A DNA stretch of 64,000 bases from NCBI RefSeq assembly GCF_058153355.1, contig NZ_CM177019.1. One strand, given 5' to 3'. The stretch's first letter is position 1, and each line of letters opens with the position of its first letter. This document shows, piece after piece, positions 63,424 to 64,000 of this stretch. Made by a program: the position numbers and the translations under genes. The notes under the pieces are model-generated. The model did no database searches and was not told the origin of the DNA. It saw nothing but the letters and a program-made list of their open reading frames with translations.

Positions 63424-63440
63424 AAAATGAGAATAACCAG

Positions 63441-63627
63441 TTCCCTGAAGGCGACGTAGCCCGGTACAAGAGTAACCCACGTTAGCGCTTGGCGACGGCG
63501 GAACAAAGCTGATTCGCGACGTAAGAAAGTGGCAGGCTCATATGACGGACCTCTGTAATGCGGTATCCAACCCGCGAATATCAGCGTGATTCACCGTCGG
63601 ATTTACTGCTACGTCGCCCTCAGGGAA
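63441..63627 (+). ncRNA. candidate bridge-type guide RNA in the right non-coding end of the IS1111-like element
   Basis: Three nested stems are present. The outer 20-bp stem pairs 63441-63460 with 63608-63627 (19/20). CGACGG (63493-98) pairs with CCGTCG (63594-99). ATTCGCG (63512-18) pairs with CGCGAAT (63573-79). They enclose asymmetric internal loops. The loop 9-mer ATATCAGCG (63578-86) is identical to the sequence at the element's right end (63684-92). Confidence 0.45.
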
Positions 63628-64000
63628 TTAAACCTAAAAAGAAAATCGTCAAAATTAGAGATTCCGGTTTGACACGGAAAGTCATATCAGCGCTTGGCGA
63701 CGGCGGAACAAAGCTGATTCGCGACGTAAGAAAGTGGCAGGCTCATATGACGGACCTCTGTAATGCGGTATCCAACCCGCGAATATCAGCGTGATTCACC
63801 GTCGGATTTACTGCTACGTCGCCCTCAGGGAATTAAACCTAAAAAGAAAATCGTCAAAATTAGAGATTCCGGTTTGACACGGAAAGTCATATCAGCGCTT
63901 GGCGACGGCGGAACAAAGCTGATTCGCGACGTAAGAAAGTGGCAGGCTCATATGACGGACCTCTGTAATGCGGTATCCAACCCGCGAATATCAGCGTGAT
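63484..64000. repeat. perfect 205-bp tandem repeat, at least 2.5 copies, running off the window end
   Basis: Units start at 63485, 63690 and 63895. Identical 78-aa pseudo-ORFs at 63558 and 63763 in the track show the copies are identical. Each unit contains most of the candidate RNA and the right subterminal inverted repeat. Confidence 0.9.

What the first reader, a model, noticed from the sequence alone, without database searches (positions are those of the whole stretch)
63424..63692. Second IS110-family (IS1111-like) element with a candidate guide RNA in its 3' non-coding end
This element has the opposite layout to IS621, with a short 5' end and a 267-nt 3' end. Downstream of the recombinase stop, three nested stems enclose asymmetric internal loops, which resembles a bridge-RNA scaffold. 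The stems are a 20-bp outer stem (63441-60 with 63608-27, 19/20), CGACGG/CCGTCG and ATTCGCG/CGCGAAT. The 9-mer ATATCAGCG in one loop strand (63578-86) is identical to the 9 nt at the element's right junction (63684-92). In IS621 the donor guide equals 7 nt of the end plus the 2-nt core. By analogy the core here would be CG. The left junction would then be CAGAACA-CG|GTAAGGCAG at 62157-62174, exactly where the primase reading frame breaks. A loop segment CGGAACAAA (63499-507) resembles that left flank (CAGAACACG) at only 6 of 9 positions. Guide assignment is therefore unresolved.
Basis: inference. Interest (0 to 1): 0.85.

Follow-up and report, generated by a model that had tools for sequence, protein, structure and literature searches.

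The report
ISSso6 guide-RNA end, tandemly amplified

Summary
The element is ISSso6, an IS1111-group member of the IS110 family, inserted in a P4-like primase gene. Durrant et al. 2024 already list it as carrying a predicted bridge RNA in its right end.

I confirm a guide RNA. The 3' non-coding region folds into a conserved structure supported by covariation in 60 homologues. Two variable patches covary with the flanking DNA of each homologue (0 of 10,000 permutations each).

- The core is AG, not CG.
- GTAAG (62166-70) is target DNA. The IS runs 62171-63690.
- The guides are TTAGCGCT (63482-89, right target) and ACGTAAG (63519-25, left target), not CGGAACAAA.
- Two of the three proposed stems lack covariation support and clash with a covarying hairpin.

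The target is (G/A)TAAG|CG(C/T)(T/A), which is also the tip of IS66-family inverted repeats.

63692 is not the right junction. A perfect 205-bp tandem array (63486-64000+) follows. Its unit runs from the AG inside the right-target guide to the terminal AG. Arrays of 2-4 units recur at six or more sites. Two other junction types (161 bp; 108 bp in Paraburkholderia) also end exactly at the terminal AG. Their origin, slippage or transposase, is unresolved.

The parts
61149..62170 (+). 5' part of a P4-like primase gene (D5_N), interrupted by the IS. The last 5 nt, GTAAG (62166-70), are the left target half plus the AG core. They are target DNA, not IS DNA.
   Evidence: Pfam D5_N. An uninterrupted primase in FDAARGOS_943 reads ACACAGTAAGCGCTGAGATG at 100% in one piece. 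At the speC site the same position is ATAAG.
62171..63690 (+). ISSso6 proper (1520 bp, counting the right-hand AG), with its first complete 3' end.
   Evidence: All copies share GCAGTATGAC...GTCATATCAG while the flanks differ. Empty sites were reconstructed. RefSeq names it 'IS110-like element ISSso6 family transposase'.
62176..62188 (+). Left subterminal inverted repeat, ATGACTTTCCGTG.
   Evidence: It is complementary to 63673-85. In the homologues the two repeats change together (TTTCC/GGAAA, CCCC/GGGG, TTCAC/GTGAA, TTTGC/GCAAA).
62296..63423 (+). DEDD transposase/recombinase gene (375 aa). An upstream in-frame ATG lies at 62248.
   Evidence: PF01548 at 2.6e-11 and PF02371 at 8.2e-24. The protein is identical to the ISSso6 protein in the seekRNA paper supplement.
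63438..63630 (+). Structured bridge/seek RNA gene. Helices: P1 63438-60/63608-30; P2 63461-63/63546-48; P3 63470-73/63536-39; P4 63477-80/63529-32; P5 hairpin 63492-99/63508-17; P6 63560-63/63572-75; P7 63587-90/63596-99.
   Evidence: RNAalifold on 60 distinct homologues: 49 pairs, 98.1% of cells paired, 11 pairs with changes on both sides, 0/500 shuffles reach the observed value, and all slid controls are far lower.
63482..63489 (+). Right-target guide TTAGCGCT. Its reverse complement is AG-CGCTAA, the core plus the right target half. It contains the palindrome AGCGCT, and its AG (63484-85) is the left breakpoint of the 205-bp unit.
   Evidence: Across 31 distinct guides, the reverse complement of this patch matches the right flank at 5.74 of 8 positions, against 3.12 +/- 0.22 for shuffled pairings (0/10,000).
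63519..63525 (+). Left-target guide ACGTAAG. It has the same sense as the left target half plus core, (ac)GTA-AG.
   Evidence: Across 22 distinct guides it matches the left flank at 5.09 of 7 positions, against 3.67 +/- 0.20 for shuffled pairings (0/10,000).
63578..63584 (+). ATATCAG, identical to the right end plus core (ATATC-AG). This is a candidate left-donor guide.
   Evidence: It is nearly invariant in the non-coding region (A1), and the right end is nearly invariant too, so covariation cannot be tested. In L087 it is the left breakpoint of a 108-bp tandem duplication.
63669..63674 (+). TTGACA, the -35 half of a putative promoter that would form only in the circle junction. The -10 would be cAGTAT at 62172-77, 17 nt away once the ends are joined.
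   Evidence: Read directly from the sequence. Both hexamers are conserved in the homologues. This is an inference; no promoter was found in the linear form.
63673..63685 (+). Right subterminal inverted repeat, CACGGAAAGTCAT.
63486..63690 (+). Tandem unit 1 (205 bp). It runs from just after the AG inside the right-target guide to the terminal AG.
   Evidence: TRF: period 205, 100% matches.
63691..63895 (+). Tandem unit 2, identical to unit 1. It has a full right end but lacks the 5' arms of P1-P4.
63896..64000 (+). Start of tandem unit 3, cut off by the end of the window.

Best explanation
This is the right (3') non-coding end of ISSso6, an IS1111-group IS110-family insertion sequence.

Shown:
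- The end encodes a roughly 190-nt structured RNA closed by a long stem.
- Its 5' domain (about 63461-63548) is a target-binding loop. It holds a right-target guide (TTAGCGCT, complementary to the top strand AG-CGCTAA), a variable hairpin, and a left-target guide (ACGTAAG, same sense as GTA-AG).
- Both guides covary with the flanks of each homologue.
- The element inserts without duplication at (G/A)TA-AG|CG(C/T)(T/A). One AG is shared between target and element.

Inferred by analogy with IS621 and the IS1111-family seekRNA elements:
- The RNA binds the DEDD recombinase and pairs with both strands of the target.
- ATATCAG pairs with the element's right end.
- An excised circle, which would carry a junction promoter (TTGACA, 17 nt, cAGTAT), recombines with the target at AG.

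In this copy a 205-bp piece of the end is repeated in tandem at least 2.5 times. The piece carries most of the RNA gene plus a complete right end. Its breakpoints are the AG inside the right-target-guide DNA and the terminal AG.

I think the duplications arise because DNA that encodes a guide necessarily resembles the element's own junctions. AGCGCT is a palindrome, so the guide DNA repeats the core plus right-flank sequence. ATATCAG repeats the right end. These give short direct repeats at which illegitimate recombination occurs. RecA-type unequal exchange then changes the unit number.

Whether the first step is catalysed by the transposase (about 0.45) or is replication slippage or unequal sister exchange (about 0.4) is not resolved.
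For: Identity:
- RefSeq names the element ISSso6.
- The protein is identical to the ISSso6 protein in the seekRNA supplement.
- Durrant et al. 2024 list ISSso6 as bridge RNA in the right end, IS1111 group.
- Both Pfam domains are present.

Ends and core:
- Empty sites match at 100% in one piece.
- The tkt site is consistent once a 7-nt difference is allowed for.
- At the speC site the left junction reads ATAAG rather than GTAAG.

Structure: 60 homologues at 71-81% amino-acid identity from Burkholderiaceae give 98.1% paired cells and 11 compensated pairs, with 0/500 shuffles reaching this.

Guides:
- Permutation tests give 0/10,000 for both guides.
- The order, top-strand-complementary segment 5' of the bottom-strand-complementary one, is the order reported for IS1111 seekRNAs.
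- The domain sizes (88 and 193 nt) are comparable to the reported 82 and 154 nt RNAs.

Site specificity: the same primase position is occupied in prophage alleles only 89-96% identical to the window's allele, while the IS is about 99.9% identical.

Array:
- TRF gives 100% identity between units.
- The same junction is found in independent assemblies at the SopA (4 units), tkt, primase, speC and pINV/IS66 sites, with one-unit alleles at the same sites.
- A 161-bp variant (L011) and a 108-bp variant in Paraburkholderia domus (L087 against single-copy L086) also end exactly at the terminal AG.
Against: - No RNA data were available. The 5' and 3' ends of the RNA and its promoter are unknown, and no sigma-70-like promoter was found in the linear element.
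- Donor-side pairing cannot be tested, because ATATCAG and the ends are invariant. No convincing right-donor guide was found.
- The E. coli left flanks match the left-target guide only over GTAAG. The two further guide bases (AC) are not matched.
- For a transposase-made array: no nested insertion (ACGTTAG|GCAGTATGAC) and no head-to-tail dimer (ATATCAG|GCAGTATGAC) exists in 5,426 complete E. coli genomes. The internal site reads TTAG where natural targets invariably read TAAG.
- For slippage: the 161-bp junction has only 2 nt of microhomology (AG), yet it lies exactly at the terminus. Half of the array-bearing sites lack the CT that makes the 6-nt repeat.
- Arrays are rare. Only about 7 places carry the junction-spanning ORF, against about 2,000 blocks of the collection with the transposase. 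Short-read assemblies would collapse such arrays.
Confidence: 0.85

Rival explanations
1. The tandem array has nothing to do with the transposase. A first duplication arose by replication slippage or unequal sister-chromatid exchange between the short direct repeats AGCGCT (63484-89, and the right end plus a CT flank). The two-unit element then transposed as a whole, and RecA-dependent unequal crossing-over changed the unit number.
For: - 6-nt microhomology (AGCGCT) exists at the primase, speC and SopA sites.
- 8-nt microhomology (ATATCAGT) exists in the L087 case.
- A 7-bp deletion between two AGCGT repeats next to the right end at the tkt site looks like simple slippage.
- Unit number varies from 1 to 4 or more at single sites, as expected for homologous unequal exchange.
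- No nested or dimer intermediates were found.
Against: - The 161-bp variant has only AG in common, yet it breaks exactly at the element's last base.
- All three junction types observed have one breakpoint exactly at the terminal AG, and none lies in flanking DNA.
- Arrays also sit at sites whose flank starts CGTT, CGTA or CGTC.
Confidence: 0.4
2. One reading: core CG; element 62166-63692; three nested stems forming two guide loops; ATATCAGCG as a 7+2 donor guide; and a target guide near CGGAACAAA.
For: The stems and the 9-mer identity do exist in this copy. ATATCAG does equal the right end plus core.
Against: - Empty sites place the crossover at AG.
- The left junction is ATAAG at the speC site.
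- The CG after ATATCAG at the right end is target DNA, or in this window the next unit.
- The inner stems show no covariation and clash with covarying P5.
- CGGAACAAA lies in the variable hairpin.
- The patches that covary with the flanks are 63482-89 and 63519-25.
Confidence: 0.03
3. The tandem repeat is an assembly artefact of this one genome.
For: The array runs off the window, so its end cannot be seen. Tandem repeats are error-prone in assemblies.
Against: The identical junction occurs in at least 8 other independent assemblies at 6 sites, including finished chromosomes (CP026839.1) and a pINV plasmid. There it has defined ends of 2.0 or 4 units followed by the expected flank.
Confidence: 0.03
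4. The conserved 3' structure is only a protein-binding or transcription-terminating end sequence, with no guide function.
For: No RNA evidence was available here. There was no Rfam hit.
Against: Two variable patches track the flanking DNA across 22-31 independent guide variants. This is exactly as demonstrated experimentally for IS1111-family seekRNAs (PMC11187229).
Confidence: 0.05

Closest known systems
IS1111-family seekRNA / bridge RNA elements (ISEc11, ISKpn4, ISPa11; Siddiquee et al. 2024, PMC11187229; Durrant et al. 2024, PMC11208160)
   Same: - A DEDD transposase with PF01548 and PF02371.
- Subterminal inverted repeats.
- A long non-coding region downstream of the transposase gene.
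- An RNA with a top-strand-complementary segment 5' of a bottom-strand-complementary one, overlapping at the insertion point.
- No target duplication.
- A -35 hexamer in the right end for a circle-junction promoter.
- ISSso6 itself is listed by Durrant et al. as 'RE, IS1111'.
   Different: - The transposase is 375 aa, longer than the 330-350 aa quoted for typical IS1111 transposases.
- Target and guides had not, to my knowledge, been spelled out for ISSso6.
- This copy carries a tandem array of the right-end and RNA module.
IS621 bridge RNA (IS110 group; Durrant et al. 2024; Hiraizumi et al. 2024)
   Same: - Guide segments in internal loops pair with both strands of the target.
- A segment identical to the element's right end plus core (the left-donor guide logic).
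- A 2-nt core shared by donor and target.
   Different: - The RNA is in the right end, not the left end.
- The order of the target guides is reversed.
- The core is AG, not CT.
- The subterminal inverted repeats are long (13 bp).
- There is a hairpin between the two target guides.
ISPpu9 / ssr9 modular transposition (Pares-Guillen et al. 2025, PMC12288879)
   Same: - An IS110-family element whose downstream small-RNA module is bounded by repeated end-like boxes.
- Recombination occurs at an AG dinucleotide.
- Alternative ends give circles with or without the module.
   Different: - In ISPpu9 the module is a separate unit with its own A' and B' boxes, found singly and dispersed. Here it is a head-to-tail array of a 5'-truncated RNA gene plus right end.
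- No solo units were seen here.
[quoted passage not shown]
   Same: ISSso6 inserts 5 nt inside the tip of another transposon family's terminal inverted repeat. IS66-family repeats start GTAAGCG. Several ISSso6 copies have IS66 genes 25-90 bp from the junction.
   Different: - The host element family is different.
- ISSso6 also uses chromosomal and prophage sites that carry the same short motif (primase, speC, tkt, SopA).

Membership tests
IS110 family, IS1111 group | DEDD (RuvC-like) N-terminal domain plus a Transposase_20 C-terminal domain | tested here: met
   PF01548 at 2.6e-11 and PF02371 at 8.2e-24.
IS110 family, IS1111 group | Subterminal inverted repeats of 7-17 bp | tested here: met
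   13 bp at 62176-88 and 63673-85, lying 5 and 5 nt inside the ends. The two repeats covary in the homologues.
IS110 family, IS1111 group | The longer non-coding region lies downstream of the transposase gene | tested here: met
   267 nt downstream against 125 nt upstream.
IS110 family, IS1111 group | Site-specific insertion without target-site duplication, at a short core shared by the element and the target | tested here: met
   Empty sites match at 100% in one piece. AG is present once in the empty site and on both sides of the inserted element.
Bridge RNA / seekRNA-guided recombinases | The non-coding region encodes a conserved structured RNA | tested here: met
   49 pairs, 98.1% of cells paired, 11 compensated pairs, 0/500 shuffles. 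Existence of the RNA itself was not tested.
Bridge RNA / seekRNA-guided recombinases | RNA segments complementary to both strands of the target, covarying with the target | tested here: met
   Permutation tests on 31 and 22 distinct guides gave 0/10,000 each.
Bridge RNA / seekRNA-guided recombinases | RNA segments that recognise the donor (the element's own ends) | tested here: inconclusive
   ATATCAG equals the right end plus core, but both are invariant, so covariation cannot be tested. TACTGC (63604-09) is complementary to GCAGTA of the left end, but it does not covary with left-end variants.
Bridge RNA / seekRNA-guided recombinases | The RNA is expressed, binds the recombinase, and is required and reprogrammable | not testable with these tools
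   No expression data were available. This has been shown experimentally only for other family members.
Rfam-curated RNA family | A match to any Rfam 15 covariance model | tested here: not met
   No match at E <= 1 in 61000-64000.
ISPpu9-like modular IS | The RNA module is bounded by its own copies of both end boxes and is found as solo copies | tested here: not met
   Units carry a true right end but no left-end copy. No solo units were seen in the loci examined.

The most novel reading that the evidence does not exclude
DNA that encodes a bridge-RNA guide is unavoidably a mimic of the element's own recombination half-sites. In ISSso6-type elements the recombinase would use these internal mimics together with the true right end. 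The mimics are the AG-CGCT inside the right-target guide, the ATATC-AG of the donor guide, and an AG just 3' of the left-target guide. The result would be tandem arrays of the right-end and RNA module, giving an element with several nested right ends. This would be a self-inflicted, RNA-guided rearrangement and a possible route to modular elements such as ISPpu9/ssr9.
Probability: 0.3. Interest if true: 0.6.

Novelty: already known. Interest (0 to 1): 0.33.

Why it matters
The main claim, a guide RNA in the 3' end of an IS1111-like element, is established biology. It has already been predicted for this very element, so it adds little.

What this work adds is a worked example. It gives the exact ends, the AG core, both target guides and the target motif of ISSso6. 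It also explains why the element so often sits at the tips of IS66-family elements in Shigella and enteroinvasive E. coli genomes.

The tandem arrays are a minor but real curiosity. They show that the built-in sequence similarity between guide genes and element junctions makes these elements structurally unstable. If the recombinase causes the arrays, they would reveal an off-pathway, self-directed reaction. That would be relevant to people engineering bridge recombinases.

Tried and rejected
- An Rfam scan at E <= 1 gave nothing.
- A sigma-70 promoter scan of 63250-64000 gave nothing. The only terminator-like sites are on the minus strand in the right end.
- The 95%-identical E. coli relatives that lose similarity after about 63503 are copies truncated by another IS, not guide variants.
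- I looked for a right-donor guide. GTGGCAGGCTCATATGAC resembles the left end in the same sense, but it forms the 3' arms of P4, P3 and P2, and the resemblance fades in the homologues. TACTGC is complementary to the left end but does not covary.
- 63536-46, which is complementary to the right end (I8), is not conserved in the homologues.
- The base after ATATCAG correlates with the first base of the left end (T with G, C with T, G with A). This is neither identity nor pairing, so it is probably shared ancestry.
- A search for a nested self-insertion junction and for head-to-tail IS dimers found none with at least 80% coverage.
- The E. coli genomes that hold only the last 53 nt of the element are old copies with the RNA gene deleted, for example strain Santai.
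The frequency of arrays outside E. coli could therefore not be surveyed.

Full report
**What is in the sequence.** Positions 62296-63423 (+) encode a 375-aa protein with the two domains of IS110-family transposases, PF01548 DEDD_Tnp_IS110 and PF02371 Transposase_20. The gene sits inside a P4-like primase gene (D5_N) whose reading frame breaks at about 62170. RefSeq annotates identical copies as 'IS110-like element ISSso6 family transposase' or 'IS110 family RNA-guided transposase'. The protein is identical to the ISSso6 entry in the supplement of Siddiquee et al. 2024.

The 269-nt tail folds better than shuffled sequence (z = -4.15).

From 63484 to the window end the sequence is repeated 2.5 times at 100% identity. 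What follows 'ATATCAGCG' at 63684-92 is therefore not primase DNA but CTTGGCGACGG, a restart of 63488 onward.

**True ends and core.** I collected independent ISSso6 copies from E. coli and Shigella assemblies. All copies share GCAGTATGAC...GTCATATCAG. The left junction is usually GTAAG|GCAG, but at the speC site it is ATAAG|GCAG.

Joining the left flank (through xTAAG) to the right flank (from CG) reproduces uninterrupted DNA at two sites.
- The speC site matches at 100% in one piece in 5,419 genomes.
- The primase site matches at 100% in one piece in FDAARGOS_943.

So GTAAG (62166-70) is target DNA, and the element runs 62171-63690. The shared core is AG, which is present once in the empty site and on both sides of the insertion. 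There is no target duplication.

The target motif from 11 sites is (G/A)TA-AG|CG(C/T)(T/A). GTAAGCG is also how the adjacent IS66-family elements begin. In several loci the IS66 genes start 25-90 bp from the junction. ISSso6 thus often sits 5 nt inside an IS66-type terminal repeat, much as IS4321/IS5075 sit in Tn21 repeats.

The window's primase allele is only 89-96% identical to the alleles in the three other strains that carry ISSso6 at the same position, whereas the IS is about 99.9% identical. This suggests repeated insertion into the same site.

**The RNA.** A scan of one genome per species found 80 loci in Burkholderiaceae with transposases 71-81% identical to this one. Their 3' non-coding regions align well, with sharply delimited variable patches.

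RNAalifold on 60 distinct sequences gives seven helices.
- P2: 63461-63 / 63546-48
- P3: 63470-73 / 63536-39
- P4: 63477-80 / 63529-32
- P5: hairpin 63492-99 / 63508-17
- P6: 63560-63 / 63572-75
- P7: 63587-90 / 63596-99

In this structure 98.1% of cells are paired, and 11 pairs have compensatory changes in 72 cells. No shuffle out of 500 reaches these values, and the slid controls fall to 32-42% paired.

They overlap the well-supported P5.

**Guides.** Two variable patches flank P5 inside the loop closed by P4.

The 5' patch is TTAGCGCT (63482-89). In each homologue it is the reverse complement of the right junction, that is, the core plus the right flank. Across 31 distinct guides the match is 5.74 of 8 positions, against 3.12 +/- 0.22 for shuffled pairings (0/10,000). 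A few low scores are one-base register shifts.

The 3' patch is ACGTAAG (63519-25). It repeats the left flank plus core. Across 22 distinct guides the match is 5.09 of 7 positions, against 3.67 +/- 0.20 (0/10,000).

This arrangement puts the top-strand-complementary segment 5' of the bottom-strand-complementary one, overlapping at the insertion point. That is exactly what was shown experimentally for IS1111-family seekRNAs. The domain sizes (88 nt for the target loop, 193 nt for the whole structure) are comparable to the reported short and long RNAs of 82 and 154 nt.

ATATCAG (63578-84) equals the right end plus core, as a left-donor guide should. Both are invariant, however, so this cannot be tested. 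I found no convincing right-donor guide.

The subterminal inverted repeats (62176-88 and 63673-85) covary with each other across the homologues. The right end carries a conserved TTGACA (63669-74). In a circle it would lie 17 nt from cAGTAT of the left end, forming a junction promoter. This is an inference; no promoter is seen in the linear element.

**What is already known.** Durrant et al. 2024 predicted bridge RNAs in the right ends of 93% of IS1111 elements. Their supplementary table lists 'ISSso6, RE, IS1111'.

Its details are wrong: the CG core, the 62166 and 63692 boundaries, CGGAACAAA as a guide, and two of the three stems.

**The tandem array.** The unit (63486-63690) runs from just after the AG inside the right-target-guide DNA to the terminal AG. 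Each extra unit has a complete right end and most of the RNA gene, but it lacks the 5' arms of P1-P4.

The array creates a 78-aa ORF across the unit junction. Looking that ORF up found further arrays.
- 4 units at a SopA site (L095)
- 2 units at tkt (L096; L009 has 1 unit at the same site)
- 2 units at the primase site (L097; L001 and L002 have 1)
- 2 units on pINV or next to IS66-family elements (L003, L099); 2 units in L098 beside a closely similar flank (CGTCAACGGAGCACCG)
- 2 units at speC (L010; L006 and L014 have 1)

Arrays are rare. About 7 places carry the ORF, against about 2,000 blocks of the collection with the transposase. Short-read assemblies would collapse such arrays.

Two other junction types exist.
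- L011 has a 161-bp unit joining ATATCAG to TGGCAGG (63530 onward), with only AG in common.
- Paraburkholderia domus L087 has a 108-bp unit joining the right end to the DNA just after the internal ATATCAG. Its relative L086 has a single copy.

All three types break exactly at the terminal AG.

The 205-bp case is explained by the palindrome AGCGCT. The guide DNA TTAGCGCT contains the same AG-CGCT as the right junction at sites whose flank starts CGCT. The full internal site, ACGTT-AG-CGCTTG, matches the guide-specified target ACGTA-AG-CGCTAA at 10 of 13 positions. That is as good as natural sites, although it has TTAG where natural sites invariably have TAAG.

**Mechanism of the array.** Two routes fit.

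(a) Transposase-mediated. This would be a recombination or one-ended strand transfer between the right end and an internal half-site mimic. Related reactions have been reported. ISPpu9 uses alternative end boxes at an AG to make circles with or without its small-RNA module. A preprint reports top-strand-only transfer for an IS110 element.

(b) Replication slippage or unequal sister exchange at the 6-8-nt direct repeats, followed by transposition of the enlarged element and RecA-type expansion and contraction.

Evidence for (b):
- microhomology of 6 and 8 nt in two of the three junction types
- a 7-bp deletion between AGCGT repeats next to the right end at tkt
- no nested-insertion or dimer junctions in 5,426 complete genomes

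Evidence for (a):
- the 2-nt junction of L011 lies exactly at the terminus
- no junction type has a breakpoint anywhere else
- arrays occur at sites that lack the CT of the 6-nt repeat

I cannot decide between them. I put (a) at about 0.45 and (b) at about 0.4.

Either way the root cause is the same, and it is specific to this kind of element. A gene for a guide has to look like the junctions it guides.

**Verdict.** This is a known element of a known kind, with a published prediction of its bridge RNA.

The useful additions are the corrected anatomy (AG core, ends, guides, target motif, IS66 association) and the recurrent tandem amplification of the right-end and RNA module. That amplification is a modest curiosity with one testable, mildly novel reading.

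Noticed in passing
L009 and L096 (tkt site); uninterrupted tkt: The uninterrupted tkt gene reads CCGTAAGCGTTAAGCGTATTT, with two overlapping target-like motifs 7 nt apart. L009 (1 unit) keeps CGTTAAG to the right of the IS. 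L096 (2 units) has lost exactly these 7 nt. This is an adjacent deletion between two AGCGT repeats.
   Followed up: partly
L070 2765-2888; L015 and L020 at the same position (corresponding to window ~63549): Three Burkholderiaceae homologues carry foreign DNA inserted at the same point of the RNA gene, after GGCGGA and between P2 and P6. It is 124 nt in L070. In L015 and L020 the contig ends inside it. The inserts share the start AATG(G/A)AATGAACG...CCCCCAC, so this may be a small mobile element that targets the structure.
   Followed up: no
L100 (E. coli O157:H16 Santai) 1380-1560, and about 70 other E. coli genomes: Many E. coli genomes hold a decayed ISSso6-like copy in which the RNA gene is deleted (window ~63410-63603 is missing) but the last ~90 nt and the right end remain. 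It abuts an IS66-family repeat (ATATCAG|CGTAAAGCC).
   Followed up: partly
window 60000-62170 against L001, L002, L097: The window's P4-like satellite prophage is a diverged allele, with the primase region 89-96% identical to the other ISSso6-bearing prophages. It carries the IS at the identical nucleotide, so this primase codon stretch (AAC ACR GTA AGC GCT GAG) is a recurrent insertion hotspot.
   Followed up: partly
window 63558-63794 and 63763-63999 (+): The tandem array creates a 78-aa ORF that spans each unit junction. It exists only in arrays and has no Pfam hit on record. It is almost certainly not a gene, but it proved a handy exact-match probe for finding arrays in other assemblies.
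   Followed up: yes
L013 2878-2900: One copy has ATATCAG|CCTGAACC where sister copies have ATATCAGCGTACAG|CCTGAACC. This is a 7-nt deletion between two CAG repeats at the right junction, and another small rearrangement exactly at this end.
   Followed up: no
L015-L094: The closest relatives of this E. coli/Shigella element outside Enterobacteriaceae are all in Burkholderiaceae (Paraburkholderia, Caballeronia, Cupriavidus; 71-81% amino-acid identity). Many of their targets look like palindromic, REP-like sequences, for example L019: ACGCACAG-GCTAG-CTGTGCGT.
   Followed up: no
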